A DNA stretch of 64,000 nt from Candidatus Amesbacteria bacterium (lineage in GTDB: Bacteria; Patescibacteriota; Microgenomatia; CAZETR01; Amesbacteraceae): NCBI GenBank assembly GCA_027371535.1, contig DAHXMV010000001.1:96879-160878 (forward strand), written 5' to 3'. Position numbers and translations under genes: made by a program. Under the pieces are notes generated by a model. That model did not search any database. It worked only from the letters and a program-made list of their open reading frames with translations, and was not told where the DNA came from. Below, one piece after another: positions 2,038 to 23,314 of this stretch; the stretch's first letter is position 1, and each line of letters starts with the position of its first letter.

Positions 2038-2044
2038 AAATTCT

Positions 2045-5726: not shown

Positions 5727-6370
5727 AGACTGTTGGCCAATATTTTAACACTATCGGCAGGGGAAATACCCTTGTATTTATTGATATAAATGGTGTCAAT
5801 GGGAATTTCGACCCACTTCAGTTTATGCTGATGGCGGCTGAAGCGGGCGATCATTTCAGTTTCGACTCCGTAACGGTCAGACTGCCATTTAGATAAAAGA
5901 TAAGCCTTTCTGGTTAAAGCCCTGTAGCCGGATAAGATGTCCCTGATCCGCACCCCGAAGACCAAACGGCAATAAATTCTTGCCAGGAAATTCCCCAGAT
6001 GCCGGTCATGCGGATCGCCGGCAGAATAAGTCCGGGAACCGAAAACCAGATCGGTTCCCTGCTGCAGATGTTTTATAAAAACCGGTATTTCCTTGGGATC
6101 ATGCTGCAAATCAGCATCCATGTAGATCACCGCATCCGCACCCGAGGCAAAGGCATAATCAGCCCCCGTCTTCATGGCCGCCCCCTTACCCAAATTCAGC
6201 TGGTGACGTAACAGGGTGACCGGATATCGGCGGGGAATTTCCAGCGGAGCTTCGGAGCCGTCATCCACGATCACCACCCGGGATAAAGGGAAGACGGAAC
6301 GCAGTTTGGACAGCAACATCGGCAGCCGCGGTTGTTCGTTAAAAGCCGGAATAACAATAAATATTTTCAT
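5708..6370 (-). CDS. GT2 polyprenyl-phosphate sugar synthase (Dpm1/GtrB/ArnC-like)
   Basis: 'FIVIPAFNEQPRL...VVIVDDGSEAP', 'NLGKGAAMKTG', 'DADLQHDP', 'DILSGYRAL'. This motif order is characteristic of dolichyl/undecaprenyl-phosphate glycosyltransferases. Confidence 0.75.
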   Translation of the reverse strand: MKIFIVIPAFNEQPRLPMLLSKLRSVFPLSRVVIVDDGSEAPLEIPRRYPVTLLRHQLNLGKGAAMKTGADYAFASGADAVIYMDADLQHDPKEIPVFIKHLQQGTDLVFGSRTYSAGDPHDRHLGNFLARIYCRLVFGVRIRDILSGYRALTRKAYLLSKWQSDRYGVETEMIARFSRHQHKLKWVEIPIDTIYINKYKGISPADSVKILANSLWWKLF

Positions 6371-9205: not shown

Positions 9206-10339
9206 TCAGGCTACCCAATAACCAAACGCAAACAGGGAAAGATAAATAAAGAAAGCCATACCGGACAGACTGAATAACAGATACCTGAGACGGGGAAATC
9301 CGGCCGCAAAATCCCCCAATACGATAAACAACGGAAAGCACACCAGCACATAACGGGGCAGGGAAACAAAATTACCGGTAAGGGTGGGTAAAAATAAGGC
9401 AAAAAGACTGAAAACAGAATATGAAAGCCGCTGTCTGAACAGAGAAAAAACAGTCAGAGTGATGAAAACGATACCGACGATGAATTCCAACCAGATGGTT
9501 AAATAAAGAAAATCATTTGTCGATACGGTCGTAATCATTTTCAGATAACGCCAGATAACCTGATAGGGTAAAACTATACGCAGACTGCGGGATTGATTAA
9601 AAGCCGTCTGAACGTGATAAAAAGCCAGGGCGTCACCGGTGGTTTTATAAAGATAAAACATGTATATTCCCAAAGACAGCGGGATTAAAAGCAAAGGCAG
9701 CAACCGGGTCAAAATCCGGCCGAAAGTAAGGTTTTGCATACCCGATTGCCAGAAATATTCGATAATCAAAGCCGGGAAGAGAAACACGCCGACCAATCTG
9801 GTATAGGCAGCCAGGGCCCCGAATATGCCTGCCAGCAGCCATTTCCCCCGTCTGGCCGTGTAGAAGGACAGCACGATCCATAACAAACAAAGCCCTTCCG
9901 TATACACCGAGGAGAAAAAAAAGCTGGTGGGAAAAAATAACAACAGCAGTACCGTCCATCGTGAGACCTGCCGGGGATAATCCATCTCTATTAATCTGAC
10001 CAGAAAAATCAGGGCCAGGAAAAAAGAAAAAGAGGAAATAACCACGCCGATTAAAACCGGTGATCTGACATATGTGAAGACCCAACTGATAAGCTTGGGG
10101 TACAAAGGGAAAAATGCCTGCTGTCCGAAATTGTATCCATGAGTGGCGATCAATATAAAATGCACGCCGTCAAAATTTGAGCGGAAGTTTAAGAGCGGGT
10201 CCCGGTGATATTCTGTTACCCCCCCGCCCAAATAGGTGCCGCTTTCCCTGACCGGTAAAAACCCGGAAGCAATGATGACTACGGCGAGGATCAGGACCTG
10301 CCAGATAAGATAATATTTCAGAATAGCTTTAAATGTCAT
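9206..10339 (-). CDS. PIG-V/Gpi18-like (GT76-like) integral membrane mannosyltransferase candidate
   Basis: 377 aa polytopic protein. 'DGVHFILIATHGYNFGQQAFFPLYP' resembles the conserved 'D..HF..IA..GY...AFFP' loop of the PIG-V mannosyltransferase family. Confidence 0.45.
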   Translation of the reverse strand: MTFKAILKYYLIWQVLILAVVIIASGFLPVRESGTYLGGGVTEYHRDPLLNFRSNFDGVHFILIATHGYNFGQQAFFPLYPKLISWVFTYVRSPVLIGVVISSFSFFLALIFLVRLIEMDYPRQVSRWTVLLLLFFPTSFFFSSVYTEGLCLLWIVLSFYTARRGKWLLAGIFGALAAYTRLVGVFLFPALIIEYFWQSGMQNLTFGRILTRLLPLLLIPLSLGIYMFYLYKTTGDALAFYHVQTAFNQSRSLRIVLPYQVIWRYLKMITTVSTNDFLYLTIWLEFIVGIVFITLTVFSLFRQRLSYSVFSLFALFLPTLTGNFVSLPRYVLVCFPLFIVLGDFAAGFPRLRYLLFSLSGMAFFIYLSLFAFGYWVA

Positions 10340-11400
10340 ATGGACTTGTTTAATACCGAACGATAGACGGACAACATTTCCCCGGCAACCCGGTCCCAGG
10401 AAAATAACAGGGCTTGGGCCGGTCCTGCAGCGGACATTCCGGAACGCAAAGTCTTATCAAAAAAAACGGACTTTAATTTGGCGGTGAAATCCATTTGATT
10501 ATAAGGGTCAAAGTAAACAGCACTAAGTCCGGCAATTTCTGGCAGTGATGAAGCCCGGCTGCAAATAACCGGGGTACCGCACGATAAAGCCTCCAATACC
10601 GGAAATCCAAAACCTTCCCGGAATGAAGGCTGACAGTAAACAGTAGCCAATTGATAAACGGAGACCAGTTCCGCATCCGGGACAAAACCCAATCTGATAA
10701 ATTGGGATTTTTGATTTACGATGTACGATTTAAGATTTTCCAGGTGCCTGAGTTCGGGGTGACGGGAATCCAGGGTTTCAATCTCCAAAGCGGATTTGCC
10801 GGCCAGAACCAAAGGTATTTTCAATTCCTGACAGGCCCGGAATAAACCCGGCAGATTTTTATTCCAGTTAATGTCGCCGACATAAAGCACAAATTCGGGC
10901 GGTAAATGATATTTGCTCCTGACAATTTTCAATTCGGCCGGATTTTTTTTACGGGTATATACCGGGTCGGCAGCCAAATATACCAATTTGATTTTGGCAT
11001 CGGGTATCTGCAGGTATCTTTTTATACCTTTTACAGAGGCGTAGGAATCCGTTACCACTACAGAAGCTGATCTTAACGCGATTTTTTGCCATAAAAAATT
11101 CAGGCTACCACGCAGCCCGGGGCGGTAAATATCGGGAAATTCCAGGGGGATGACATCGTGGACGGTGACGACCGCGGGGAGTGATTTGAAAAAGGGCAAA
11201 CCGGGTTTAAACAGATCAAAATAGGGATAGTGGACCAAATCCAGCCCGGAAAAATTTCCCGGACCGACCTCCAGAATTTGGAAATCACTTTGTAACGCAG
11301 CCCGCGTTAAAGCGGCTACCAGATTGCGGGTATAAAACCCCACCCCGCGCACCCCATGAGCCTGGCTTAAGTTCCGGGTGACGATGCCGACCTTATTCAT
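10336..11400 (-). CDS. GT4 family glycosyltransferase
   Basis: 'REGFGFPVLEALSCGTPVICSRASSLPEIAG' GT-B signature. Start placed at the Met of 'MNKVGIVTRNL...' (rc ATG at 11398-11400). This gives an 8-nt overlap with the upstream GT2 stop instead of a 120-nt overlap. Confidence 0.8.
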   Translation of the reverse strand: MNKVGIVTRNLSQAHGVRGVGFYTRNLVAALTRAALQSDFQILEVGPGNFSGLDLVHYPYFDLFKPGLPFFKSLPAVVTVHDVIPLEFPDIYRPGLRGSLNFLWQKIALRSASVVVTDSYASVKGIKRYLQIPDAKIKLVYLAADPVYTRKKNPAELKIVRSKYHLPPEFVLYVGDINWNKNLPGLFRACQELKIPLVLAGKSALEIETLDSRHPELRHLENLKSYIVNQKSQFIRLGFVPDAELVSVYQLATVYCQPSFREGFGFPVLEALSCGTPVICSRASSLPEIAGLSAVYFDPYNQMDFTAKLKSVFFDKTLRSGMSAAGPAQALLFSWDRVAGEMLSVYRSVLNKSI

Positions 11401-12178
11401 CCGGGTACCTGGAGATCTGCCAGTATTTAATGTAGGAAATACCCCAGCGTAAACCGGAAAACAGGGCAAATACAAAACCCGGAAAGCCGTCCGCGTAGCC
11501 CCTGTGCCTGACATAAATACTGAAAAATTCGCTGAAGGGTTTGATAAACAGATAGTCTACCGCCTGCCATGAGCCGACAGGAATATTTTCAGTCCGTAAC
11601 TGATCGGCAATCAGCGAGGTGTAACGCTGATAACGGAGTAAATAATTTTCAAAGTCGGGCGTATTATAATGCAGCAGGTTATTTTTCAGATACTCCGTGG
11701 GGCCATTTACCTCTGCCTGTTCATGAACGTCTTTGGCCGGCAGCCGGCCCAAGCCCCGTTTATAAAGCCTAAGGGTAAGATCCGGGTATTGTCCGCCTTT
11801 GGTTAAAGGTGAACCCAAAAAATAATTTAACCGGGGAATCCAGTAACCGGCTAATTGCCCAGGTTGGCTGATAACCCCGGCAATTTCCTCAGCCAGCGGA
11901 GGTGAAACCACCTCATCGGCATCCAATTGCAATATCCAGTCCCCGCCGGCCGCATCTATCGCCATATTTTTATTGATATGGAAGTTCGGTTTATTGTCAG
12001 CGGAGTAGACCTGAGCGTGGTATTGGCGGGCAATATCGACAGTTTTATCAGTTGATTTACCGTCCACGACAATAATTTCGTCCGCCAGGCGGCTGACAGA
12101 TTCCAGACAGCGGGCCAGATTTCTTTCCTCATTGTATGTGGCTAAAACAACCGAGAGGAGAATTTTTTTATCAGCCAT
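11393..12178 (-). CDS. GT2 family glycosyltransferase (WaaE/KdtX-like small GT2)
   Basis: 'ILLSVVLATYNEERNLARCLESV...IIVVDGKSTDKT...QLDADEV'. Start at 'MADKK' (rc ATG at 12176-12178). Confidence 0.8.
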   Translation of the reverse strand: MADKKILLSVVLATYNEERNLARCLESVSRLADEIIVVDGKSTDKTVDIARQYHAQVYSADNKPNFHINKNMAIDAAGGDWILQLDADEVVSPPLAEEIAGVISQPGQLAGYWIPRLNYFLGSPLTKGGQYPDLTLRLYKRGLGRLPAKDVHEQAEVNGPTEYLKNNLLHYNTPDFENYLLRYQRYTSLIADQLRTENIPVGSWQAVDYLFIKPFSEFFSIYVRHRGYADGFPGFVFALFSGLRWGISYIKYWQISRYPDE

Positions 12179-12182: not shown

Positions 12183-13802
12183 TCAGTTGGAAATAATTTT
12201 AAAAGCCGGACTGCCACCCGGAAAATAAATAGTTTTGACGATATTGACACCGACAGACGGGATATCCTCCGGGGCCGCGACGATCAGGGTACCATGAATA
12301 TCCCGTACCAGGTTCCAGTTTGTGTCCGTGAACCGGTATTTGTCAAATTGCTTCACCGTAGAGAAATTATACCGGTCACGCAAAGTTAATTCATGATGAC
12401 CCTGGAATTTTTGGGGCGGATATTTTAAATAAAATAAAAACAAAATATAGGGCTGGTCATATTTATCGGTCACTAAAATCCGGTGATACCTGTCCTGGTT
12501 TCGAGCCACATAGGCTACCATTTCCTTAAACCCGTATTCCCAGGCTGAAGGATAAGTTTGGGGATAATGAACATAATATTCATGAAGGTAACGGGTAAAC
12601 TGATACGTATAAATCCCCAGCACCAAAATACATATTACAGACAATTTCCAATCTGAAAACAAACCCAAAAAATAAGACAGACCGGCGGCGGTAATAATGG
12701 TCAGGGGAATAACCATATTCTGGGCTCTTAAAGCGTGGGGGACCTGGAAAGTCATGGCGGCAGCCACGGGAGCCACCAGAAGCCATAACCAGACAATTTT
12801 TAATTTCGAATTTTTAATTTTTAATAAATAAAATAACCCGAAGAGCAAAAAAACAAAATCTGTCCAGTAGAGAAGACCCGTTTCCGGCACCCGGTTGCGC
12901 TGGATGGCATCGCCGCCGATAAACAGGAAATTTCCGTCAAAATGGGAAAGGTAGTTTTTAATAAACTGAATGGTATAGAAGACAGGCCGGTTGAAAAGCA
13001 TTTTTTCAAGCACCGCCCCCGGTCCGTGATATTGGCCGCGCAGCTCATTAACCAGATTCAGCGGACCCATATCGGCCAACAGACCGACACCGGAAAGACG
13101 CGAGGCGGTATCTTTATTAAAAACCGAAAAAAGGAGCGGCAGAGAAATCAAAAACATCAGAGGAAGCGCTGCCATACAGGTTTTTGCATGGGAAAAAACA
13201 TATTTATAACTGATAATTAACAGGCCGAATAACAACAACGGGGAGATGACTCTGGCAGACTGATATGTGTACATCGACAAAATCAAATTTAAAAGAAAGA
13301 AGGTAAAATTAATAAAAGTGGGTGTTTTTCGCCACTTGAGGAAAAAAATTACTCCCAGAAGTATCAGAGCAGTAGATACATTGACTTCCCAGGCACCCCG
13401 GGAAAAGTGAAGATGCCAGGGGGAGATAGCCAGGAGTACGGAGCTGACGGCAGAGAGTTTGTAGTTATAAGTTATCAGTAAGACAAAAACAAAAATTAAA
13501 AATACCGAAAGAACACCAAAGAGAGCTGACGGAAGACGGACAGCAAATTCATTCAAGCCCAGGAATTTAACGACCGGAACCAAAAGGTAAGAATAAAGAG
13601 CCGGTTTATAGTCACCGAAAGATTCCAGGTTAACCGGCAGCAGATGACCATCTTCGTCCTTACCGGTATTTAAAAGCGAATAGGCGTTATAACCCAGAGC
13701 CGCCTCATCGGCGTTTAAGCCTGAAGGGAAATCGGAAACGGCATAAAATCGCAGAACAGCTGCAAAAATTATTATCAGGATTATTAACAGATATTTTTTC
13801 AT
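12183..13802 (-). CDS. GT39/PMT-like GT-C membrane glycosyltransferase (family A paralog 1)
   Basis: 539 aa. TM1 then a loop reading 'NADEAALGYNAYSLLNTGKDEDGHLLP...FGDYKPALYSYL', comparable to the PMT 'DE' loop-1 motif. At least 10 further TMs. Confidence 0.7.
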   Translation of the reverse strand: MKKYLLIILIIIFAAVLRFYAVSDFPSGLNADEAALGYNAYSLLNTGKDEDGHLLPVNLESFGDYKPALYSYLLVPVVKFLGLNEFAVRLPSALFGVLSVFLIFVFVLLITYNYKLSAVSSVLLAISPWHLHFSRGAWEVNVSTALILLGVIFFLKWRKTPTFINFTFFLLNLILSMYTYQSARVISPLLLFGLLIISYKYVFSHAKTCMAALPLMFLISLPLLFSVFNKDTASRLSGVGLLADMGPLNLVNELRGQYHGPGAVLEKMLFNRPVFYTIQFIKNYLSHFDGNFLFIGGDAIQRNRVPETGLLYWTDFVFLLFGLFYLLKIKNSKLKIVWLWLLVAPVAAAMTFQVPHALRAQNMVIPLTIITAAGLSYFLGLFSDWKLSVICILVLGIYTYQFTRYLHEYYVHYPQTYPSAWEYGFKEMVAYVARNQDRYHRILVTDKYDQPYILFLFYLKYPPQKFQGHHELTLRDRYNFSTVKQFDKYRFTDTNWNLVRDIHGTLIVAAPEDIPSVGVNIVKTIYFPGGSPAFKIISN

Positions 13803-15436
13803 TTGAGAGCGACTGCTGTTAAAGCCGGCTGGCCGTCAGGATATTTAATGTCTCCCAGGTGCAATAGTCCGGCAAACCGGGTATCTTTGTCCGGCAGCTC
13901 ATACTGATCACCGATAAAAATCGTGTCTTTCTGGCCTCTCAGAGACGGCCAGAAAACAGGCATAAACCTGAATTGGGAAAAACCTGAAACCTGTCCCACG
14001 TCGCCATTGGGTCCGGCAATCAACCTGGCCTGTTTCTGATACCCGGCCGGGTTGATTTTGAGATAAAAAAGGAAAAAGATATAAGGCTGACCCAGCTTGT
14101 CAGTCATAACCACATGGTGATATTCAGAGAGATATGGTTTAATTAATTGAATCACGGGTTTGTAAGCCGAAACCCATTCCCGACTTGAGTAATAAGAGTT
14201 GTGAAGGTAATACATATCCAGATAAAGGACCAGAAATAATCCGACTAACAGTACATATGCCCCGGCCAAAAATTTGCGGTTTAGCAGACGGGAAATTCCA
14301 ATTCCGATAAAGATAGTGAGCGGAATTAGCATCGGTAAAGACCTGACTCCAGACACCAAATCCCGGGAAAAGGCAGACGGAACAGGAGCCAGGAACAACC
14401 AGGAAAGCAAAAAAACCGTGCTGCGGTTTAATTTCCTCAAAATATAAATTATTCCCATAAGCAAAGTGACCAGTTCAGGATAATAAAAATAACCCTGATT
14501 ATATTCAGCCAGACGCAAACTGGTCCAATCACCCTGAATAAATAAGAACCGGGGTGAAAAATGATTTAAATATCTCTGATAGACCCCTATCAGCTGATTA
14601 AGCAGTTCCGAATGAAAAAGAAAGTATGTCCAGTCTTTTGAGGCAGTGTGATCCTGGGCCAAAAGCCGGCTGACGTAATCGCCCCCCCGGGTGTAACTGA
14701 AAACACTGAAGACTTTTAACCGGCCGGACTGGGAAGCAAATCCCCAAATTATAGGTAAAAGGAATAAAGCTGAAACAAGCAAAGGGGTGATGATGCGGGT
14801 CAGTTTCAAATTACGGCGAAATATTAAAAGCAGGCTGAAAACAATTAATGGGGTAAATAATTTAGCACCCTGATAAGACCAGAAAGTCAGACCGAAAAAC
14901 AGAAAAGCCAATAGATAATGCCATCTGGATGCTGATTTATGTGCACGGATAAACAGGACTGCACCTAAAACGGTTAAAAACAGCGACAGGTTGGCCTCCC
15001 AGGCCCCCCGGGAAAAATGGATAGCCCAGGGATTTAAAGAAAGAACCAGGGTAGAAAGCAGCGCAGAAGAGGGATTTTCAGGATATAAATACCGCACCAG
15101 AAGAAAAATCAAAACGATCATTATCGTGCCGAAAAGAGCCGAAGGCAGCCGGGTGGAAAATTCGTTTAAATCCAAAAATTTTACCGAAGGGACGGTAAAA
15201 TAAATATATAAACCCGGTTTATAATCCCCAAACGATTTAAAGACAACCGGAGCCAACTGCCCGTATTCGTCCCTGCCCGTTCTTAACAGCGAATAGGCAT
15301 TGTAGCCGAGAGCCGCTTCATCCCAGGTAAATCCGGCAGGACGGATATTTAAGCCCACAACGCGCAATATCAGGCCTATAAAGATAATCAGTCCCAGTAA
15401 AACAAAATTCTTTTTCATATCAAATCTGTTTAACAA
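13799..15436 (-). CDS. GT39/PMT-like GT-C glycosyltransferase (family A paralog 2)
   Basis: 545 aa. 'WDEAALGYNAYSLLRTGRDEYGQLAPV...GDYKPGLYIYFTVP'. Tandem to paralog 1, about 60% identical across the conserved loop. Confidence 0.7.
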   Translation of the reverse strand: MLNRFDMKKNFVLLGLIIFIGLILRVVGLNIRPAGFTWDEAALGYNAYSLLRTGRDEYGQLAPVVFKSFGDYKPGLYIYFTVPSVKFLDLNEFSTRLPSALFGTIMIVLIFLLVRYLYPENPSSALLSTLVLSLNPWAIHFSRGAWEANLSLFLTVLGAVLFIRAHKSASRWHYLLAFLFFGLTFWSYQGAKLFTPLIVFSLLLIFRRNLKLTRIITPLLVSALFLLPIIWGFASQSGRLKVFSVFSYTRGGDYVSRLLAQDHTASKDWTYFLFHSELLNQLIGVYQRYLNHFSPRFLFIQGDWTSLRLAEYNQGYFYYPELVTLLMGIIYILRKLNRSTVFLLSWLFLAPVPSAFSRDLVSGVRSLPMLIPLTIFIGIGISRLLNRKFLAGAYVLLVGLFLVLYLDMYYLHNSYYSSREWVSAYKPVIQLIKPYLSEYHHVVMTDKLGQPYIFFLFYLKINPAGYQKQARLIAGPNGDVGQVSGFSQFRFMPVFWPSLRGQKDTIFIGDQYELPDKDTRFAGLLHLGDIKYPDGQPALTAVALK

Positions 15437-17006
15437 AAAGGGCGGGAGAACGGTCTAAAAAGTTTATCCGGTATAAAAGCCCCCCGTTTTTTATCTGATG
15501 ATCCGGACTGGTAACCACAATGGCGTGAATCCCCGGATCCCGCTTACTAACTATATCCGGCAACTCCCAATCGTTAACAAAACGGAATTTGGAAAAAGCA
15601 TCCACCCAGAACCAGTCATCGTGAAAGTTCCAGGCAAGACTTGCTGTGGTCTGATAATAACGGGGGTCGATACGCAGATACCAGAGGAAATATTCGTGCG
15701 GTTCACCGTACCTTTTAGTGACTATAATCCGGTCATATCTGTTTGAAATTGTGTTCAGATAAGAAGTCAGCTGTTGATAACCGTATTGCCAGCTGGCAGA
15801 GTATTTAACCGGATAATTGCTTAAAAAATCCGAGAAATAGAACCACACAAACAGACAGTAAACCCCGATAAAAAGCCCGCCCAAAACAAGATGAAATTTT
15901 TGCTGAAGACGTTTCCAGAAGTACCAGAAACCATAGACAGTGATTAAAAATACCACAGGCAGCATAGCGGTGGACCTGATGACAGCAAACTCGTCCCTGG
16001 TAACCGCAGCCGGAAGAGGCGAAAGCAGGATCCAACTTAAAAGAAAATATTTACGTTTTTTGAATAAAAGGTATAAACCAAAATAAAAGAAGGGCAAATC
16101 GGCCCAATTCATGACCCCGAATCCGGGTATGCTGTACTGATACTGAGTACCTCCGGATATAAATAAAAATGCCGGAGAAAAATATTGGAAATAATGCCGG
16201 ACGGCGGTGGTCATAAAATACACCGGCCGGTTTACCAGCAACCTGGTGAGTAATAACGGCAAAGGGCTATGGTTTCTTAATTGCTCCAAATAGGCTATGG
16301 CACCGGAATCCAATATCCCAACCCAGGAACTCCGGGCCCGGGTCTGGGGTAAAATGAGGATTCCCAATCCGAATATAATTACTGACAATGAGGCCAGAAA
16401 GACCCTGGTATTTTTAATAAATTTGGGGAGCAAAAAAATTAAAAACAGGGGAATAAATATCCGGGTGTTGTGATATGCAAACAAACTTAATCCCCAGATA
16501 ACCACCGCCCAAAAAGGCCTTTTAGCAAAATAAAGCGCCAGGCCCAAAGTAAGCAGCAGAACCGCCAGGTTTGATTGGAAGACCGCCCGGGAAGGAAAAA
16601 AAGTCCAGGGCTCAAAGGCAATAAACAAGCATAACAACAAAGCCGGAGCGGGCTTTTTGAAATAATAAAAACCGGCTAAAAAACCCAAAAGACAGGTTAA
16701 CACCCCTACCAAAGCCGGTACCATACGGACCGAATAATCTGTGGGGCCAAAAAGAAAAATCGGAACGACCGTCAGATAGGTATCCAGAACTGCCGGATAA
16801 TCCCCATAAGCGCGATAATTTAAAACCGGAAAAGGCACCCCCCACTGATCCCTACCGGTTTTTAACAGGGAATAAGCATTATAAGCATGGCTGACTTCGT
16901 CCCAATTTAAAGCAGGAGGCAAATCCACCAGCCGGTAAAACCGGATAAAGGCAGCGGAAAATAAAATTAATACCAGAATCAGCCAATACGTCTTTTTAGC
17001 AAACAT
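15420..17006 (-). CDS. GT39/PMT-like GT-C glycosyltransferase (family A paralog 3)
   Basis: 528 aa. 'WDEVSHAYNAYSLLKTGRDQWGVPFPV...YGDYPAVLDTYL'. Confidence 0.7.
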   Translation of the reverse strand: MFAKKTYWLILVLILFSAAFIRFYRLVDLPPALNWDEVSHAYNAYSLLKTGRDQWGVPFPVLNYRAYGDYPAVLDTYLTVVPIFLFGPTDYSVRMVPALVGVLTCLLGFLAGFYYFKKPAPALLLCLFIAFEPWTFFPSRAVFQSNLAVLLLTLGLALYFAKRPFWAVVIWGLSLFAYHNTRIFIPLFLIFLLPKFIKNTRVFLASLSVIIFGLGILILPQTRARSSWVGILDSGAIAYLEQLRNHSPLPLLLTRLLVNRPVYFMTTAVRHYFQYFSPAFLFISGGTQYQYSIPGFGVMNWADLPFFYFGLYLLFKKRKYFLLSWILLSPLPAAVTRDEFAVIRSTAMLPVVFLITVYGFWYFWKRLQQKFHLVLGGLFIGVYCLFVWFYFSDFLSNYPVKYSASWQYGYQQLTSYLNTISNRYDRIIVTKRYGEPHEYFLWYLRIDPRYYQTTASLAWNFHDDWFWVDAFSKFRFVNDWELPDIVSKRDPGIHAIVVTSPDHQIKNGGLLYRINFLDRSPALFVKQI

Positions 17007-18634
17007 AAGGGTGATAATAATAAACTAAACAGGCTAATATAATTACCAAGGCTTCTGGGCCAGGTATCAGAAAATACGGCGTAGATCTGATGGAACCCGG
17101 GGTCAAGCAAACGGAAACTAGTCAAACCGAGCAATCCCGAAGGTGAGGAGGCAACTGACCGGCCATCCACCAGCACATGCCAACCAGGAAAATAGGTAAT
17201 GGGCAAACTGACAACCGCCGGCGCCCGGGAAACATCGAGAAGATAATCAGCTGAAGAAGATTTCTTGACTGCTGAGACAGTCAGTCCGTCACCTGAGATA
17301 AACCGGGCGGAAACAGGGGCAAAATCCGCCGGCGGCTGGGGAGCTGACCGCGGCCAAAAATCGGTTAATGAAGAACTGCGGCCTTCATCCCACAACGGGC
17401 CGGAATACTGCTCTTTGTCCGTGATGTTTCTCCAGATATCCGGGCGGAAAAAATTGTAATTAATCAGAATTACCAATAAAATCAATAACACAGGCCACAA
17501 GCGGATGCCGGGCCAGTTAAAAAAACTGACGGCGTAGCCGGATGCCAGGGATAAAAAGAAGAGGGCCGGCCCTAAAAATCTCCAGGGAAACTGAATGTAT
17601 TTCATTAACGGGACCAGGTTCCAAATGACGGAAGACTTACCATGGGTGAGAAACAGAGCCGCCACTCCCAGAAGACAAAAAGTTAAGAAAGAAAAATTGT
17701 GTTTCTTCAGAATGAAACCAAGACAGATAATCACCAGGGGCAGGATCCAGTGCAGCTGGCCGATGGAGATACTGAGGAATTTTTTAGCCCATAACGAGGC
17801 CCCATATCCCCAGAAGCGGGAAATAAATAATTCGTTGAGAGTGGCGAAATGAATATGAAAATCATAATAGCCACTTACGGTACTACCCAGATCGATAAAT
17901 TTATTTTCAGCCAATACCGGCAGTAAATAGTAAGCGGATAAGCCCAAAGCTATAATTCCAACCAGTACTAATCCGGGAACGCCGGAAAAGTCGTGTCTAT
18001 GGACAGCACCGATCAGCCAGTACAAACCCAGAAAAGGTAAAAACATAAATACGGATAAATTATGGGTGGTAATTAAAAGCGCCAGGGACATAGCTAAAAG
18101 AAGCAAATAGCGTGAGGAATGTTTTTCCAAATAAAGATCCAGAAAATAAATCAGCAAAGGATATAAAACAAAAGACAGAGCCTCGGGTAACGCCCCCCTG
18201 ACCCAAACATCCACCGAGCGATAGGGGGCATAAAGGTAGAAAACCGCCGAGACCAAGCCGCCTTTATTTCCCCAGTATTTTCTGGCCAGGAGAAACATGG
18301 TGAAACCGGAAAGCAGCAGGGATAAACCGTAGACAATTTTGGCGGAATCCAAAAGCGACAGACCGGTAAAATGGACAAGTTCAGTCAGCCAGTAGGGAAA
18401 TTGGGCATAATAGTTGAACAAGGGTTCACCATAACCTTTTCCGGAATCGGCTGCCCACCGGCAGGGAAAAACACGGTCCTTTATACACTGATCAAACTCC
18501 TTCATTCTGAAGAGGTGAGGGTCGTGCATGGTAAAGATTCCCGACCTGACCATCAGAGAAAAAGTCGGCAGGGCCAATACCACCAAAACCGCCAAAAAAC
18601 GCAGAGTTTTCATCCTAAGGTCCATTATACTCAA
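16979..18634 (-). CDS. YfhO-like polytopic membrane protein (family B GT-C candidate)
   Basis: 551 aa. N-terminal motif 'MHDPHLFRMKEFDQCIKDRVFPCRWAADSGKGYGEPLFNYY' is shared with the proteins at 50782-52419 and 59829-61535. It resembles the YfhO-family 'HD..FHL.R...G.FP....GYG...FY' opening. Confidence 0.45.
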   Translation of the reverse strand: MSIMDLRMKTLRFLAVLVVLALPTFSLMVRSGIFTMHDPHLFRMKEFDQCIKDRVFPCRWAADSGKGYGEPLFNYYAQFPYWLTELVHFTGLSLLDSAKIVYGLSLLLSGFTMFLLARKYWGNKGGLVSAVFYLYAPYRSVDVWVRGALPEALSFVLYPLLIYFLDLYLEKHSSRYLLLLAMSLALLITTHNLSVFMFLPFLGLYWLIGAVHRHDFSGVPGLVLVGIIALGLSAYYLLPVLAENKFIDLGSTVSGYYDFHIHFATLNELFISRFWGYGASLWAKKFLSISIGQLHWILPLVIICLGFILKKHNFSFLTFCLLGVAALFLTHGKSSVIWNLVPLMKYIQFPWRFLGPALFFLSLASGYAVSFFNWPGIRLWPVLLILLVILINYNFFRPDIWRNITDKEQYSGPLWDEGRSSSLTDFWPRSAPQPPADFAPVSARFISGDGLTVSAVKKSSSADYLLDVSRAPAVVSLPITYFPGWHVLVDGRSVASSPSGLLGLTSFRLLDPGFHQIYAVFSDTWPRSLGNYISLFSLLLSPLCLLKRRIG

Positions 18635-18636
18635 AG

Positions 18637-20247
18637 CTAGGGGGATTTTTCAGCCAGGACAATAGCCGGAGTGTCATCGGGATATCTGGCGGCGACGAAG
18701 TAAGTGATTGACGCGGGAAAATCTTCCGGACGGCCGACATATAATGTGGGAACATATACGGGATCGGGATAAAATAAATTACCAAAGCGAAAATTACTGA
18801 GTTTATAACCATCATACTGATCCAGGAATTTGTAACCCTGGTTTTCAAAATCCGACCAGTCGGGAGTAGAAGCCTGAAAAAATCGGGGGTCAGTCCGGGT
18901 ATAAAATGCCAGGTAGATCTGGGGTTCGGAAAGGGATCTTGAAAAACGTATTTCCGGGTAGTCAGGAGCGGCCTTTAATATCCGGGGAAGTGCCTGCAAC
19001 CAGCCATAACCCATAGCCTTGGCAGAAACCAACGGCAGCTTTTGTGTATACGTAACCGTAAAAGCGCCGAAGGAAACCAACAGGGCAATTAAGAACAAAC
19101 CTGTCATCAGTCCTTTACGGCCGGCTAAAGAATCTAAATAAATTCCGCCGCCGACGGCGGATAATAACACCAGCGGGATAATCATGACTGCGGACCGATT
19201 GGCAGCAAAACCGGGTCCCTTGGTTAACGCAGCCGGGACAGGGCTTATAAAAAGCAGAAGGAGAATAAAGAAATATATTTTCCCGGGCTTCTGGATAAAC
19301 TTAACCAAAAAAATCATTAACAGAGGAAATTCAATTAAATAAATTACACCCAAACCCGGTAGCATGCCATAGGTGGCTTCTCCGGGACCGGAAAAAAACA
19401 GAAAATCCGGAGAAAAGTAAGTCAGATAATTTTTAATAAAAACCGGTAAGGCAAAGGTGAGTTTGTTGTAGAGTAACTGAGCCAGCGGCCCCGGCCAACC
19501 GGACTGAACTGCAACCCTGTGGTATAAAGACATCGACTGCCATTTGTCAGGGGGATTAAAAATGGAGATATCATATGATCTGGGATTTAAGAAGATTAAC
19601 GAATAAAAAGCTCCGCCGGAAAGAATTAAAAATATAACCCAAGTGAGAAATATTTTCATTTTCGGGATATAAATGACTGAAAGTCCCAACAATATCAAGG
19701 GTGTCAATAACCGGGCAGAATGATAGGAATACATGCCCAGGGCCAAAATTAAAGCCCCTAGGTAAGGTCTTTTATAAAAACACAGAGCCATCCCCAAAAG
19801 AACAAAAATCACCGCTAAATTTGCCTCAAAAGCCCCCCGCGAAAGAGATATATACCAGGGAGAAACAGTCAAAAGCAAAGCAGCTAATAATCCTGTAGTA
19901 TGACCGAGAATTTTGACTGTTAACAGATAGATGACCAGGATAGCCAAAAAGCTTAAAATGGAGTTTGGCAAGCGGGTGGAAAATTCATTCAAACCAAAAA
20001 ATCGGATTGCAGGCACGGTCAAAAAGCTATACAGAGGCAGTTTATAGTCGCCATATGATTTCAACCCGGTTACCGGCAATTTCCAAAAAGCAGTCCCCCA
20101 TTCATCCCTACCAGTCTTTAAAAGGTTATATGCATCATAACCGAAGGTGGCCTCGTCGGGGGTAAAACCAAGCGGAAATTTATCCAGCCATAAAAATCTG
20201 GTCAGACAAGCCAGAACTATGATCAATATAAAAATGAAACAGCGCAT
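18637..20247 (-). CDS. GT39/PMT-like GT-C glycosyltransferase (family A paralog 4)
   Basis: 536 aa. 'TPDEATFGYDAYNLLKTGRDEWG...YGDYKLPLYSFLTVP'. Confidence 0.7.
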   Translation of the reverse strand: MRCFIFILIIVLACLTRFLWLDKFPLGFTPDEATFGYDAYNLLKTGRDEWGTAFWKLPVTGLKSYGDYKLPLYSFLTVPAIRFFGLNEFSTRLPNSILSFLAILVIYLLTVKILGHTTGLLAALLLTVSPWYISLSRGAFEANLAVIFVLLGMALCFYKRPYLGALILALGMYSYHSARLLTPLILLGLSVIYIPKMKIFLTWVIFLILSGGAFYSLIFLNPRSYDISIFNPPDKWQSMSLYHRVAVQSGWPGPLAQLLYNKLTFALPVFIKNYLTYFSPDFLFFSGPGEATYGMLPGLGVIYLIEFPLLMIFLVKFIQKPGKIYFFILLLLFISPVPAALTKGPGFAANRSAVMIIPLVLLSAVGGGIYLDSLAGRKGLMTGLFLIALLVSFGAFTVTYTQKLPLVSAKAMGYGWLQALPRILKAAPDYPEIRFSRSLSEPQIYLAFYTRTDPRFFQASTPDWSDFENQGYKFLDQYDGYKLSNFRFGNLFYPDPVYVPTLYVGRPEDFPASITYFVAARYPDDTPAIVLAEKSP

Positions 20248-20825
20248 ACAATCAGCCCGGCACAGAATACGAACAGGATTAAAAAAGCGGCTAAAAATTT
20301 AAAATCCAACACTGATTTAACCAGACCATTTACTTCAGCCTGCAGAACCTGAATGCGCAGAGTGGGAAAATAATAGGTTTGATAAGAAATATTGCCTGAA
20401 GATACACCCACACCAATGGCTTCCCGGGTATCCGTCCCGGGGGATTCCAGCCTTATTTGAAAAGTCTGTCCGGCAGAATCGGTAATGGGTGAAAACTGAA
20501 ATCTGACTGAATCCCCGTCACCCACATTATAACCATTCAGGGATATCCGGCGGATAATTTTGCCGTTTTGCAGAAGATAAAAAAACAACGGTTTTTGATT
20601 TCTCAGCCCCACATTTTTTAAATAGATGGTGACTACATTCAGTCCGTCATGTCCGGGGTAGATATCCTGATCCACCGGGTGATTTTTTGAAATCCAGATA
20701 AATTCATCCGACCGGGGTTGTCCGGTATCCGGTAAACGCCTGATAAACAGAGACAGGCTGACGGCAAACAAAACAGGCAGTAAACAATAAACGAGAGCGA
20801 TAAGCCAATATTTATTCTGAAGCAT
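20223..20825 (-). CDS. Bitopic membrane protein: N-terminal and C-terminal TM helices flank an extracytoplasmic domain of about 140 aa. Unknown function.
   Basis: 200 aa. N-terminal 'YWLIALVYCLLPVLFAVSLSLFI' and C-terminal 'FLAAFLILFVFCAGLIVCAVSFLY' hydrophobic helices. Confidence 0.4.
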   Translation of the reverse strand: MLQNKYWLIALVYCLLPVLFAVSLSLFIRRLPDTGQPRSDEFIWISKNHPVDQDIYPGHDGLNVVTIYLKNVGLRNQKPLFFYLLQNGKIIRRISLNGYNVGDGDSVRFQFSPITDSAGQTFQIRLESPGTDTREAIGVGVSSGNISYQTYYFPTLRIQVLQAEVNGLVKSVLDFKFLAAFLILFVFCAGLIVCAVSFLY

Positions 20826-22062
20826 ATGATTTCCAAAGAAAATAAGTGAGCCAGATTCCGGATCCAGTCAGTATTGCCTGAAACAAACCCTGAAGCAGCC
20901 AGGGGTCAATAAATAATTTGATCATTTCCGAAAGAGCGGGAAACATTACCGACTGGGAATTTAAAGGACTGAATAATCCCAGGAAAACATACTGGTCCGG
21001 CGTTAACCAACTGACGGCAAAATAGCTTAATAAACAAATATATATCAACCACCTTCGGGAAGACGGCAGACGGGTCCATAACAGGGCTATAAAAGGCATG
21101 CTCCAGACAATCCACTGGGCATGAAACGGAGATAATAGAATAACGTAAAAAGTCGTGACCAAAAACTCCGGAGTGACGTCTGATCTTTGACGACTAAACC
21201 AGGAATAAACAAGCATCAGAGCGTAAACCAATACGTAATAAGGGATCCTCTGAGTCGGGCTGACTTCCAGACCGGAAATAAATATACCCTGCATTAAATT
21301 TGAATGCGTCATTGTATAGCGATAATCGTTGGAATTCAAAACCGGTAACATAGGGAAAATAAAAGCCGTTATAAAAGCCATAGCCGAGATAATAAATTGT
21401 TTGAGATTCCGGGATCTGAATAACAGAAATGGCATCAGTAATAATGGGTATGTTTTCAGGGCAGCCCCCAAGCCTAAAAGCAGTGCGGCACAGGAATTTT
21501 TACGGTCTTTAATTAAATAAAGCGCAGCCACCGTCAGGAAGGCGCAGACGATATCAAACTGGCTTAGCATATAGACGGCATAGAGGGTAACAGGATTGTA
21601 AAACCAAAAAATTATCAAAAGGCGCCGGTGTTTCTTTTCCGTGATAAATTTGGCGAGCAACAAACCGCATGCCAAATCAAATAACAGATAAGGTAACTTG
21701 AGTACCAGCATTATTTCAAACATTCGGGAATTAAAATAACCAAGCGGACCCCAGTCGTTCAACCATGAACCCAGGGTTTGGGGGCCGATTATCCAACCGG
21801 CTATTTTGTCCCAGCTGCCTAAAAAGTAGTACGCCAAAGGCGGATAGTTGAAGCTGTCGGTGTACGGCAGACGGGCTTTATTTTGCCCTATAAACGAATA
21901 AATATCGGCAATCCCCCGGCTCAAAAACTGGGCGTGGAAATGCTGGCTTTTAATATCGGGGTGAAAAAAGAAAGCGGCAAAAATCAGACGGATAATTAAA
22001 GCCGGAATCAGAATATTTAACCAGGGTGAATCAATTCTGACTTTCATTGAAATAGACAGCAA
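20812..22062 (-). CDS. GT87/DUF2029-like polytopic membrane glycosyltransferase candidate (family C)
   Basis: 416 aa. After TM1: 'HPDIKSQHFHAQFLSRGIADIYSF...NYPPLAYYFLG'. This is the D...F.A...G...Y plus YPPL pattern shared by four paralogs in the window. Confidence 0.45.
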   Translation of the reverse strand: MLSISMKVRIDSPWLNILIPALIIRLIFAAFFFHPDIKSQHFHAQFLSRGIADIYSFIGQNKARLPYTDSFNYPPLAYYFLGSWDKIAGWIIGPQTLGSWLNDWGPLGYFNSRMFEIMLVLKLPYLLFDLACGLLLAKFITEKKHRRLLIIFWFYNPVTLYAVYMLSQFDIVCAFLTVAALYLIKDRKNSCAALLLGLGAALKTYPLLLMPFLLFRSRNLKQFIISAMAFITAFIFPMLPVLNSNDYRYTMTHSNLMQGIFISGLEVSPTQRIPYYVLVYALMLVYSWFSRQRSDVTPEFLVTTFYVILLSPFHAQWIVWSMPFIALLWTRLPSSRRWLIYICLLSYFAVSWLTPDQYVFLGLFSPLNSQSVMFPALSEMIKLFIDPWLLQGLFQAILTGSGIWLTYFLWKSYASE

Positions 22063-23314
22063 TCCAGGAATACCAGGAAATAAATAAGATAATGACTGCG
22101 CTCACAATTGTAACCCAGGCGGAGACCAGAGGAACCAACACCGGAATATCCGGAAACCACCACTGATGGTACATATTAATCAGGTGGGCGAGCGAGACCA
22201 GAAAATAAATCGGCCAAAGTTGCCGGTTTTTAGAAGCCGAGATGGCCATAAAAGGCAAAACAGGTGCCAGATATCGCTCATGCATCCGGGTCAGAAACAT
22301 GAATGAGGTGAAAGCCAGGAGGCCAAACAAATTAATCAGAGCGGTATTTTTGCGGGAGACCAAAAATCGGGAAAAAAGGATGGCCGTCAGACATATAAAT
22401 ATCAATTGCCCGAACAAACTGGCGGAAATACCGCGGATAATTTCGACCGAATCAGAAATTTTTGCCAAATGGCTGAACAAAGCCCAAAGATTAAAAGCGT
22501 GATCGGAAATATAATCGGAACCGGAGCCGGTCTGGAAACGATTAATGTAGACAGAGACAGGATAAAAAAGGTTATCCGTATGCCAATTAATAAAAGGCAG
22601 GTAAGCCGCATAAAAAAGCAGACACTGGAGGACCAGACCCAGCAGGGTTTTCCGCCAGCCGACTTTTTTTATACTGAATACGGCAAAAACGGGAAAAAAT
22701 AAGAGCGAGGATTGCTTAAACAACAAAGCAGCCATAAATGAAGCGTGGGCAGACAGATATTTATTATGCAATAACAGCCAGACAGCCAGTAAAACAAAGA
22801 ATACAGGTACGGATTCCAGCTGTCCCCAGAGGGTGCTGTTATAAAACACTGAAGGATTGAATAAATACAGACACATGGCTCCAAAAGCTGCCGGTGACTT
22901 AACATTAAAAATGGTTTTAGCCAGCAGATAAATCAAAATACCGATACCAATATCGGAAAAAATGGAAACAATTTTGTGAAAAGCGGGTAAAACATTCTGA
23001 TTTTCAAAAAAGAAAACCAAAAATGACGGAGACAAGTGGATATTAACCCGAAAATGAACGAAGCGGACAAGAGAATTCAAATTATTAAACAACCAATGGG
23101 AGGTCACAAAAGAATAAAGCGCCAGGGGCGGATAAGTTGGCTGCATCACATGGCTATATGACCGGTCGTAAGCACCGGAAAAACCGGATTCCAAAATACC
23201 CGCCGACCAGGCGATATGATTGTTTACGTCCCCGCTGTAAATTGATGTGGACAAGTATATCCGTAATCCCAAGGCCAAAATTACTGCCAGAAGAATATTC
23301 ACGGGGTGTTTCAT
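22031..23314 (-). CDS. GT87/DUF2029-like polytopic membrane protein (family C)
   Basis: 'SGDVNNHIAWSAGILESGF...PTYPPLALYSF'. Start at 'MKHPVNILLAVILALGL' (rc ATG at 23312-23314) gives a 4-nt overlap with the upstream gene. The ORF-track start at 23410 would overlap by 100 nt. Confidence 0.45.
   Translation of the reverse strand: MKHPVNILLAVILALGLRIYLSTSIYSGDVNNHIAWSAGILESGFSGAYDRSYSHVMQPTYPPLALYSFVTSHWLFNNLNSLVRFVHFRVNIHLSPSFLVFFFENQNVLPAFHKIVSIFSDIGIGILIYLLAKTIFNVKSPAAFGAMCLYLFNPSVFYNSTLWGQLESVPVFFVLLAVWLLLHNKYLSAHASFMAALLFKQSSLLFFPVFAVFSIKKVGWRKTLLGLVLQCLLFYAAYLPFINWHTDNLFYPVSVYINRFQTGSGSDYISDHAFNLWALFSHLAKISDSVEIIRGISASLFGQLIFICLTAILFSRFLVSRKNTALINLFGLLAFTSFMFLTRMHERYLAPVLPFMAISASKNRQLWPIYFLVSLAHLINMYHQWWFPDIPVLVPLVSAWVTIVSAVIILFISWYSWIAVYFNESQN

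What the first reader, a model, noticed from the sequence alone, without database searches (positions are those of the whole stretch)
12183..20247. Tandem array of four GT39/PMT-like paralogs with diverged extracytoplasmic loops
Three head-to-tail copies (12183-17006) plus a fourth (18637-20247) share the 'DEA.LGYNAYSLL.TGKDE.G...P' loop-1 and 'GDYKP.LY.Y' motifs. Elsewhere they are only about 40-60% identical. The pattern fits serial duplication followed by specialisation, for example different acceptor positions or linkages on one glycan, or different protein acceptors. A YfhO-like gene (16979-18634) interrupts the array.
Basis: seen in the sequence. Interest (0 to 1): 0.55.

Follow-up and report, generated by a model that had tools for sequence, protein, structure and literature searches.

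The report
Ancient conserved array of membrane glycosyltransferases
The tandem genes are real membrane sugar-transferases, but they are ancient paralogues kept in the same order across a whole group of ultra-small uncultured bacteria (Microgenomates), so they probably build one conserved, still unknown cell-surface glycan and are not a recent local duplication.

Summary
Four head-to-tail paralogues sit at the stated coordinates on the minus strand and share the loop-1 motifs. They are only 28-34% identical overall, not 40-60%.

An AlphaFold model of copy 1 (pLDDT 88.8) is a GT-C class-A fold. The closest solved structure is ArnT, followed by STT3/PglB and Pmt4. No solved structure is detectable by sequence. 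The interrupting gene is also GT-C (PTPS_related/YfhO clan).

The window comes from an Amesbacteria-like Microgenomates genome. In 80 related genomes the order (A5)-(Alg6-like)-A4-(Y)-A3-A2-A1-GT2-GT4-PigV-like-Dpm1-like GT2 recurs. In a 301-sequence tree each window copy falls in its own clade, with one member per genome (bootstrap 71-98). The duplications therefore predate the Microgenomates radiation.

The catalytic loop residues are universal. Divergence is concentrated in one flexible outer loop and the C-terminal outer domain. A dolichol-phosphate-mannose-synthase homologue and Wzx-like flippases lie nearby.

Best reading: non-redundant, polyprenyl-phosphate-sugar-dependent transferases that assemble one conserved envelope glycan. 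The acceptor is unknown. I classify it as a new member of a known kind, of moderate interest.

The parts
12183..13802 (-). A1: GT-C class-A glycosyltransferase paralogue 1 (539 aa)
   Evidence: ORF. Pfam PMT 23.6 bits against a cut-off of 22.7. AF2 model pLDDT 88.8; best fold match ArnT. Orthologue clade in 73 loci, bootstrap 98.
13799..15418 (-). A2: paralogue 2 (539 aa by the gene call; the ORF extends to a TTG at 15436)
   Evidence: Pfam PMT_2 E 3.8e-10. 34% identical to A1. Clade of 61 loci, bootstrap 71.
15420..17006 (-). A3: paralogue 3 (528 aa)
   Evidence: No Pfam hit. Homologous to A1 at E 2e-61. Clade of 60 loci, bootstrap 87.
16979..18613 (-). Y1: a different GT-C enzyme (PTPS_related/YfhO clan, 544 aa) with a beta-sandwich outer domain and a C-terminal TM helix
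   Evidence: Pfam PMT_2 31 bits and PTPS_related 25.9 bits. Some orthologues hit PF09586 YfhO. AF2 pLDDT 91.2; fold matches STT3, ArnT, PglB and AftD. Window paralogues at 50782-52419 and 59829-61535.
18637..20247 (-). A4: paralogue 4 (536 aa)
   Evidence: Pfam PMT_2 E 1.3e-6. Clade of 37 loci, bootstrap 93.
20223..20825 (-). Small bitopic protein (200 aa) of unknown role; recurs next to the GT87-like gene in some genomes
   Evidence: No Pfam or NCBIfam hit. About 2 TM segments. Co-occurs with the G87a homologue in L010, L014, L050 and L060.
20812..22047 (-). GT87-like GT-C glycosyltransferase
   Evidence: Pfam GT87 E 2e-11 and PIG-M weak. Gene call.
22031..23314 (-). Alg6/Alg8-like GT-C membrane protein
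   Evidence: Pfam Alg6_Alg8 weak, E 0.0018, below cut-off. Recurs between A5 and A4 in many genomes.
23311..24924 (-).
   Evidence: BLASTP to A1 at E 7e-60. Motif GDEVDVGYQAYSLLHTGRD. Clade of 39 sequences from 38 loci, bootstrap 89.
40876..42480 (+). A6: sixth paralogue on the other strand (534 aa)
   Evidence: BLASTP to A1 at E 1e-54. Motif DEAALGYNAYSMLLTGKDE. Orthologue-like representatives at 43-53% identity.
11393..12178 (-). Conserved cytoplasmic GT2 directly downstream of A1
   Evidence: Pfam GT2. Best solved relatives are GmaR at 3.8e-17 and SunS. Positional orthologue in nearly all loci.
10336..11400 (-). Conserved GT4 glycosyltransferase
   Evidence: Pfam Glycos_transf_1 / GT4. Weak matches to MshA and PimA. 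Conserved position.
9206..10339 (-). PIG-V-like (Mannosyl_trans2) GT-C enzyme, a conserved cluster member
   Evidence: Pfam PF04188 at 30.7 bits against a cut-off of 22.4. Conserved position.
6367..7641 (-). Wzx-like (Polysacc_synt) flippase
   Evidence: Pfam. A MOP-type flippase also recurs downstream of the array in 29 other loci.
5708..6370 (-). Dpm1/GtrB/ArnC-like GT2 (probable polyprenyl-phosphate-sugar synthase), followed by DUF2304 at 5382-5726
   Evidence: PDB phmmer: DPMS 5mlz 2e-14, GtrB 7e-9, ArnC 2e-8. DUF2304 neighbour. Homologues close the cluster in most genomes.
62610..63767 (-). Full-length dolichol-phosphate-mannose-synthase homologue with a GtrA/DPMS TM domain (donor supply)
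   Evidence: PDB 5mlz at E 8.8e-40 over residues 1-369. Pfam GT2 plus GtrA_DPMS_TM.

Best explanation
The array is the core of an ancient operon, conserved across the Microgenomates, that encodes non-redundant GT-C class-A glycosyltransferases.

Proposed mechanism:
- Each enzyme has about 12 transmembrane helices. Its active site faces outward and is formed by the first outer loop (D32-E33, D49) together with conserved arginines (R89, R135, R235, R359).
- Dpm1/GtrB-like GT2 enzymes encoded nearby make polyprenyl-phosphate-sugar donors. Each GT-C enzyme transfers a sugar from such a donor to an acceptor outside the membrane.
- The copies share donor chemistry and catalytic residues. They differ in the flexible loop EL4 and the C-terminal outer domain, so each probably adds a different residue or linkage to one conserved surface glycoconjugate.
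- The likely sequence is as follows. Cytoplasmic GT2 and GT4 enzymes build a lipid-linked primer. A Wzx-like flippase moves it across the membrane. The PigV-like, A1-A5, Y1, GT87-like and Alg6-like GT-C enzymes then extend it. This resembles mycobacterial LM/LAM and arabinogalactan assembly, or lumenal ALG/GPI mannosylation in eukaryotes.

Shown: homology, fold, conserved residues, orthology, synteny, and the presence of donor-synthase and flippase homologues.

Inferred: enzymatic activity, donor identity, sequential action on a single glycan, and the nature of the acceptor.
For: - Fold: AF2 model pLDDT 88.8, pTM 0.90. Foldseek matches ArnT at E 3e-8 (TM 0.53-0.56), then STT3, PglB, AglB, Pmt4, ALG9, DPY19 and Emb.
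- Family hits: Pfam PMT or PMT_2 for four of the six copies.
- Retained catalytic residues: D32, E33, D49, R89, R135 and R359 are invariant in all six window copies and, with R235, universal in five orthologue clades. None looks like a dead enzyme.
- Orthology: positional orthologues at 35-65% identity against 25-34% between paralogues. Separate clades with one member per genome, bootstrap 71-98. Within-clade identity 37-47% against 27.5-34% between clades, and co-variation r 0.56-0.90.
- Where they differ: EL4 and the C-terminal domain have a within/between conservation ratio of about 1.5. EL4 is also the low-confidence (flexible) part of the model.
- Donor supply: DPMS homologue at E 9e-40, and a DPMS/GtrB/ArnC-like GT2 whose homologues close the cluster in most genomes.
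- Flippases: Wzx-like genes in the window and in 29 related loci.
- Context: 22 GT-C-related ORFs in 64 kb.
- Glycan acceptor hint: Y1 has a beta-sandwich outer domain resembling the accessory beta-sandwich domains of glycosidases.
Against: - No biochemical data exist for any member.
- No priming phosphoglycosyltransferase, ligase or LCP-type attachment enzyme was found in the window or among recurrent neighbours. The carrier and final destination of the glycan are therefore unknown.
- The nearest solved relatives of the adjacent GT2 are protein- or peptide-glycosylating enzymes (GmaR, SunS). This fits a protein acceptor at least as well.
- The tree is neighbour-joining on p-distance-derived distances, not maximum likelihood, and A2 support is only 71%.
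- Positional equivalence of D32/E33 to the catalytic Asp/Glu of ArnT or PMT is inferred from the fold and from loop position. It was not checked by residue-level superposition.
Confidence: 0.6

Rival explanations
1. The paralogues are PMT-like protein O-glycosyltransferases. Each recognises a different set of secreted or surface proteins (pilins, S-layer proteins, Ser/Thr-rich disordered regions) and does not act on a shared glycan chain.
For: - Marginal Pfam PMT hit for A1, and PMT_2 hits for others.
- DE motif in loop 1, as in PMTs.
- Pmt4 is among the fold matches.
- The adjacent GT2 is most similar to the protein glycosyltransferases GmaR and SunS.
- In monoderm bacteria, GT-C enzymes fed by GtrB-type synthases do O-glycosylate proteins (PMC11092751).
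Against: - ArnT and the OST catalytic subunits match better than PMTs.
- No MIR or PMT_4TMC domains.
- The enzymes are embedded with PigV-, GT87- and Alg6-like GT-C enzymes, GT4 and Wzx-like flippases. These are typical of lipid-linked glycan assembly.
- Five strictly retained 1:1 orthologue groups in fixed order fit a multi-step pathway better.
Confidence: 0.22
2. Each paralogue is the GT-C part of a three-component decoration system (GT2 synthase, flippase, GT-C). Each adds an optional side-chain sugar to a pre-existing wall polymer, in the way YfhO/CsbB or GacL/GacI decorate teichoic acids or rhamnopolysaccharides.
For: - Several Dpm1/GtrB-like GT2 genes are in the window (5708, 53921, 59082, 62610).
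- YfhO-clan genes are present.
- The mechanism is documented in Firmicutes (PMC5836110 and PMC7389260).
Against: - Decoration systems are usually variable, strain-specific and dispersed.
- Here A1-A3 and their partners are retained in fixed order across candidate phyla (Amesbacteria, Woesebacteria, Collierbacteria, Shapirobacteria, Daviesbacteria, Blackburnbacteria).
- No teichoic-acid or rhamnan backbone genes were seen.
Confidence: 0.13
3. The array arose by recent serial duplication in this lineage, or by independent horizontal acquisition of each copy.
For: The head-to-tail arrangement and shared motifs. A1 and A2 are adjacent and are the most similar pair, which fits a tandem origin at some point in the past.
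Against: - Each copy is closer to its positional orthologues in other genomes than to its neighbours.
- Separate clades with one member per genome.
- dS is saturated, and no DNA-level repeats remain.
- Gene order is conserved and distances co-vary, which argues against piecemeal acquisition.
Confidence: 0.03

Closest known systems
ArnT (CAZy GT83), undecaprenyl-phosphate-L-Ara4N:lipid A transferase
   Same: Best structural match (5ezm/5f15, E 3e-8, TM 0.53-0.56). Similar length and architecture: a polytopic TM core plus a C-terminal alpha/beta outer domain. Uses a polyprenyl-phosphate-monosaccharide donor. JGI names the orthologues 'ArnT-like'.
   Different: 11% identity, and not detectable by sequence against the PDB. 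No NCBIfam ArnT hit. No lipid A modification genes were seen in the window, so a lipid A acceptor is unlikely; the absence of LPS in Microgenomates is from background knowledge and was not tested here.
Protein O-mannosyltransferases (GT39; Pmt1-Pmt2, Pmt4, bacterial PMT)
   Same: GT-C class-A fold. Asp-Glu pair in the first outer loop. Pfam PMT and PMT_2 hits. Paralogues that work together (Pmt1-Pmt2 heterodimer). NCBI labels some orthologues 'glycosyltransferase family 39 protein'.
   Different: The PMT Pfam score is at threshold for one copy only. No MIR or PMT_4TMC domains. Pmt4 ranks below ArnT and STT3 in the fold search. A protein acceptor is unproven.
Mycobacterial embC-embA-embB and the LM/LAM/arabinogalactan GT-C set (PimE, MptA/B, AftA-D) with Ppm1
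   Same: Tandem paralogous GT-C enzymes with distinct acceptors on one envelope glycan. Polyprenyl-phosphate-sugar donors made by a Dpm1-like GT2. GT4 enzymes for cytoplasmic priming. GT87-like members are present. Emb, AftA and AftD are among the fold matches.
   Different: Emb proteins are about 1,050-1,090 residues in the matched chains and carry large C-terminal carbohydrate-binding modules. There is no detectable sequence similarity. The glycan product here is unknown.
Three-component periplasmic glycosylation systems (GtrB/CsbB-type GT2 + flippase + GT-C such as YfhO, GacL, GtrX)
   Same: Same logic of donor synthesis, flipping and outside transfer. YfhO-clan genes and DPMS/GtrB-like GT2 genes are present in the window (PMC5836110).
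   Different: Those systems are usually single, accessory and variable. Here five to six GT-C genes form a fixed, deeply conserved operon.

Membership tests
GT-C superfamily, class A fold | Polytopic membrane core with the conserved N-terminal helix module and a long first outer loop; structural similarity to ArnT, PglB/STT3 and PMT | tested here: met
   AF2 pLDDT 88.8. Foldseek probability 1.00 to ArnT, STT3, PglB, AglB, Pmt4, ALG9, DPY19 and Emb. The same holds for Y1.
GT-C superfamily, class A fold | Acidic catalytic motif (D/E) in the first outer loop, conserved in all members | tested here: met
   D32-E33 and D49 are invariant in the six window copies and universal across five orthologue clades. 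Equivalence to the catalytic residues of solved enzymes is inferred from loop position, not from superposition.
GT39 (PMT, PF02366) | Score above the Pfam PMT gathering threshold | tested here: inconclusive
   A1 scores 23.6 bits against a cut-off of 22.7. A2 and A4 hit only PMT_2. A3, A5 and A6 hit nothing.
GT39 (PMT, PF02366) | MIR domain in loop 5 and the C-terminal PMT_4TMC module (eukaryotic PMT architecture) | tested here: not met
   No such Pfam hits in any copy. The C-terminus is a soluble alpha/beta domain in the model.
GT39 (PMT, PF02366) | Transfers mannose to Ser/Thr of proteins | not testable with these tools
   Needs biochemistry or glycoproteomics.
GT83 (ArnT) | Sequence-level membership (NCBIfam or PDB sequence match to ArnT) | tested here: not met
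   No ArnT model in the NCBIfam hits. No ArnT in PDB profile searches even at E <= 10. The similarity is at fold level only.
YfhO family (PF09586), for the interrupting gene 16979-18613 | Score above the Pfam YfhO threshold | tested here: inconclusive
   Y1 itself hits PMT_2 (31 bits) and PTPS_related (25.9 bits against a cut-off of 26.4), not YfhO. Several orthologues carry precomputed PF09586 hits. The clear YfhO hit in the window is 30633-32927.
Recent tandem duplicates | Copies are each other's closest relatives, with residual DNA similarity | tested here: not met
   Orthologues in other genomes are closer. dS is saturated. Only short motif-level DNA matches remain.
Polyprenyl-phosphate-sugar dependent outside glycosylation pathway | A Dpm1/GtrB-type synthase encoded with the GT-C enzymes | tested here: met
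   62610-63767 matches DPMS 5mlz at E 8.8e-40 over its full length. 5708-6370 matches DPMS, GtrB and ArnC. Homologues sit at the end of the cluster in most genomes.
Polyprenyl-phosphate-sugar dependent outside glycosylation pathway | Priming phosphoglycosyltransferase and a final ligase or attachment enzyme | tested here: not met
   None among the window ORFs scanned with Pfam or among recurrent neighbours. They may lie elsewhere in the genome.

The most novel reading that the evidence does not exclude
The array is the outward-facing half of an assembly line found across the Microgenomates that builds a lineage-defining envelope glycoconjugate. This could be a lipoglycan or wall glycan standing in for teichoic acids in these ultra-small, lipid-scavenging cells. 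The pathway would be organised like the eukaryotic ER lumenal ALG/GPI or the mycobacterial LAM pathway. A1 and A2 would work as an obligate heterodimer, as Pmt1-Pmt2 or EmbA-EmbB do; their distances co-vary at r 0.90 against 0.56-0.70 for other pairs.
Probability: 0.25. Interest if true: 0.7.

Novelty: new member of a known kind. Interest (0 to 1): 0.45.

Why it matters
Almost nothing is known experimentally about the cell envelope of Microgenomates and other candidate-phyla-radiation bacteria. These organisms have tiny genomes, yet this one devotes about half of a 64-kb stretch to outward-facing membrane glycosyltransferases.

A gene block kept in the same order across several candidate phyla marks a conserved and probably important surface glycan. 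That gives a concrete target for glycomics on enrichments, for antibodies or lectins to label these cells, and for studying how they attach to hosts.

It also provides a clean natural set of five to six GT-C paralogues with an identical catalytic core and divergent acceptor-side regions. That set is useful for learning what determines acceptor specificity in this fold.

Tried and rejected
- Sequence searches of the paralogue profiles against all PDB chains gave no meaningful hit, even at E <= 10. The weak match of the C-terminal domain to a DEAD-box helicase domain (E 0.045) was treated as chance similarity between alpha/beta folds.
dS is undefined or above 2.2 for all 15 pairs.
- Promoter and terminator consensus scans were at background level.
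- No tRNA genes or Rfam families are in the window.
- Seven literature searches found no description of this array. The only related remark was 29 glycosyltransferase genes in one Microgenomates genome (PMC7143001).
- I looked for a priming phosphoglycosyltransferase, an O-antigen ligase or an LCP ligase in the window and among recurrent neighbours. None was found.
- Recent duplication and independent acquisition were considered and rejected.
Full report
**1. What is at the coordinates**

All genes between about 4 kb and 25 kb lie on the minus strand, and most abut or overlap their neighbours by a few bases. A metagenome gene call places the A2 start at 15418.

They are homologous beyond doubt, with BLASTP E-values from 1e-46 to 3e-87. 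They share the loop-1 motif and the GDY motif.

Two details of the observation are wrong:
- Overall identity is 25-34%, not 40-60%. By region, identity reaches 46-53% only in the first two outer loops and is 19-33% in the remaining regions except loop EL5 (40%).
- The family has six copies in the window, not four. The fifth is at 23311-24975 (gene call 23311-24924, minus). The sixth is at 40876-42480 (plus).

Signs of recent duplication are absent. At DNA level only short 60-80% matches at the motif-coding segments remain. Synonymous divergence is saturated for all 15 pairs, so the proposed dN/dS test cannot be applied.

**2. What the proteins are**

- Pfam gives weak PMT or PMT_2 hits for A1, A2 and A4, and nothing for A3, A5 and A6.
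- NCBIfam gives only sub-threshold hits to the archaeal Agl23 model.
- Profile searches against all PDB sequences find nothing meaningful.
- An AlphaFold2 model of A1, built on 44 sequences, is confident (pLDDT 88.8, pTM 0.90).
- Foldseek places it in the GT-C class-A fold. The best match is ArnT (E 3e-8, TM 0.53-0.56). Next come the oligosaccharyltransferase catalytic subunits STT3, PglB and AglB, then Pmt4, ALG9, DPY19 and the Emb arabinosyltransferases, all at 10-16% identity.

'GT39/PMT-like' is therefore only loosely right. These are GT-C class-A enzymes with an ArnT-like build: a TM core plus a C-terminal alpha/beta outer domain. They belong to a large uncharacterised subfamily, with 6,050 50%-identity cluster representatives at E <= 1e-30.

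The interrupting gene (16979-18613, Y1) hits PMT_2 and PTPS_related, and some of its orthologues hit YfhO. Its model (pLDDT 91.2) is also GT-C class A. It differs in having an all-beta sandwich outer domain followed by a C-terminal TM helix. The clear YfhO-family gene of the window is 30633-32927.

**3. Origin and evolutionary depth**

A1 is identical to a protein on a 320-kb NCBI contig and on an ENA metagenome contig. Its nearest named relatives are Candidatus Amesbacteria and other Microgenomates, within the Patescibacteria group.

A1 has more than 100 homologues at 53-67% identity. That is far above its 30-34% identity to its window neighbours.

Position-by-position comparison with three other genomes shows a one-to-one orthologue for each gene in the array, in the same order.

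Across 80 species-representative genome loci the order (A5)-(Alg6-like)-A4-(Y)-A3-A2-A1-GT2-GT4-PigV-like-Dpm1-like GT2 recurs. It is seen in Amesbacteria, Woesebacteria, Collierbacteria, Shapirobacteria, Daviesbacteria and Blackburnbacteria. A3-A2-A1-GT2-GT4 is the most constant core.

I built a neighbour-joining tree of 301 family members. Each window copy falls in a separate clade holding essentially one member per locus:

| Copy | Loci in clade | Bootstrap (of 100) |
|---|---|---|
| A1 | 73 | 98 |
| A2 | 61 | 71 |
| A3 | 60 | 87 |
| A4 | 37 | 93 |
| A5 | 38 | 89 |

Clade membership tracks position in the array. Within-clade identity is 37-47% and between-clade identity is 27.5-34%. The adjacent pair A1-A2 is the closest pair. 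Pairwise distances co-vary between groups (r 0.56-0.90).

The duplications therefore predate the radiation of these lineages, and the block has been inherited as a unit. The explanation is ancient tandem duplication, not independent acquisition.

**4. Where the copies are the same and where they differ**

Twenty-one residues are universal across the five orthologue groups. They include D32, E33, G37, Y38, D49 and G52 in outer loop 1, S134 and R135 in loop 2, and R89, R235 and R359.

All six window copies keep D32, E33, D49, R89, R135 and R359, so none looks inactive.

Conservation between groups is highest in loop 1, loop 2 and TM2-4. It is lowest in loop EL4 (residues 230-313) and in the C-terminal domain (418-539). 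In those two regions each group is conserved internally but differs from the others, with a within/between ratio of about 1.5.

EL4 is also the lowest-confidence part of the model. In solved GT-C class-A enzymes the corresponding flexible loop closes over the substrates; that comparison comes from background knowledge of ArnT and PglB.

**5. Context and mechanism**

The window is dominated by glycan-assembly genes:
- 22 ORFs with GT-C homology. These are the six A copies, three Y copies, a five-member second PMT_2 subfamily that includes a head-to-tail trio at 54675-59100, four GT87/Alg6-like genes, two PIG-V-like genes, one PMT and one YfhO.
- About a dozen GT2 genes and several GT4 genes.
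- Methyltransferases.
- Three Wzx-like flippases.

Donor supply is encoded locally. ORF 62610-63767 matches archaeal dolichol-phosphate-mannose synthase over its full length (E 8.8e-40). ORF 5708-6370 matches DPMS, GtrB and ArnC, and its homologues close the conserved cluster in most genomes.

The most economical model has three stages. Cytoplasmic GT2 and GT4 enzymes build a lipid-linked primer. A flippase exports it. The GT-C enzymes then each add a specific residue from polyprenyl-phosphate-sugars on the outer face.

The closest analogies are the mycobacterial embCAB and LM/LAM enzymes and the eukaryotic lumenal ALG and GPI mannosyltransferases.

What is shown:
- Homology, fold and conserved residues.
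- Orthology and synteny.
- The presence of donor-synthase and flippase homologues.

What is inferred:
- Enzymatic activity and donor sugar.
- Sequential action on one glycan.
- The acceptor.

**6. Rivals**

- Protein O-glycosylation remains a serious alternative. The adjacent GT2 is most similar to GmaR and SunS, and monoderm bacteria do use GT-C enzymes with GtrB-type donors to O-glycosylate proteins (PMC11092751).
- A set of optional decoration systems of the CsbB/YfhO type (PMC5836110) fits the parts list but not the deep, fixed conservation.
- No priming phosphoglycosyltransferase, ligase or LCP enzyme was found in the window or among recurrent neighbours. The carrier and destination therefore remain open.

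**7. Novelty and verdict**

I found no paper describing this array. The nearest remark is a count of 29 glycosyltransferase genes in one Microgenomates genome (PMC7143001).

The enzymes are new, uncharacterised members of a well-known fold. The organisation (tandem specialised GT-C paralogues plus a Dpm1-like donor synthase) has clear precedents.

Interest is moderate. The array is not mechanistically surprising. It does mark a conserved, unexplored envelope glycan in a major uncultured lineage, and it offers a natural series of paralogues for studying acceptor specificity.

Noticed in passing
window 54675-59100 (-), also 32932-34443 (-) and 42467-43855 (+): A second, different PMT_2-type GT-C subfamily (N-terminal motifs such as YDQGRDA and GDEGRDAL) forms its own head-to-tail trio and has two further copies. 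These are 25-43% identical over partial alignments.
   Followed up: partly
window 1-6000: GC content drops to 32-38%, against 42-50% in the rest of the window. This stretch holds an Acyl_transf_3 acyltransferase, a GT2, a GT4, a methyltransferase and a Wzx-like flippase. It may be an exchangeable or horizontally acquired glycan-modification module.
   Followed up: no
window 11393-12178 (-): The conserved GT2 directly downstream of A1 has as its best solved relatives GmaR (a flagellin O-GlcNAc transferase, E 3.8e-17) and SunS (a peptide S-glycosyltransferase). This hints at a protein or peptide acceptor somewhere in the pathway.
   Followed up: partly
window 16979-18613 (-), 50782-52419 (-), 59829-61535 (+): The interrupting GT-C gene has two paralogues in the window (38% and 25% identity). 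Its model shows a beta-sandwich outer domain (residues 437-514) resembling the accessory beta-sandwich domains of glycosidases, followed by a C-terminal TM helix.
   Followed up: partly
window 12183-15418 (A1 and A2) and orthologues in L005-L084: Pairwise distances of A1 and A2 orthologues co-vary more tightly (r 0.90) than those of other pairs (0.56-0.70). This could reflect a physical A1-A2 complex like Pmt1-Pmt2 or EmbA-EmbB, or simply less noise in the better-conserved groups.
   Followed up: no
window 7638-8915 (-): A CrtI/amine-oxidase-like flavoprotein sits inside the cluster. In several other genomes it lies between A1 and the GT2 (for example L023, L028, L031, L033, L035). Its role is unknown; it might modify a sugar or the polyprenol.
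   Followed up: no
window 62610-63767 (-); 5382-6370 (-): A full-length dolichol-phosphate-mannose-synthase homologue with a fused GtrA/DPMS TM domain is present. Separately, a short Dpm1-like GT2 is paired with a DUF2304 small membrane protein.
   Followed up: yes
window 39289-40860 (+), 45149-46972 (-): Two large polytopic membrane proteins (about 10 and 17 hydrophobic segments) have no Pfam hit. Both recur next to family-A genes in other genomes: 39289-like with A6-like genes in L067 and L078, and 45149-like next to A5 in L036, L043, L057, L059 and L062.
   Followed up: no
loci L007, L011, L013, L014 and many others: Many third-party MAG records titled 'uncultured Gammaproteobacteria' or 'Pseudomonadales' (and single 'Clostridia' and 'Spirochaetia' records) carry this Microgenomates-type array. 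The titles are probably placeholder or wrong taxonomy.
   Followed up: no
window 25816-26958 (-): A 380-aa protein with an N-terminal membrane anchor has a sub-threshold Glucodextran_B-like beta-sandwich hit. It may be a surface protein encoded next to the glycosylation genes.
   Followed up: no
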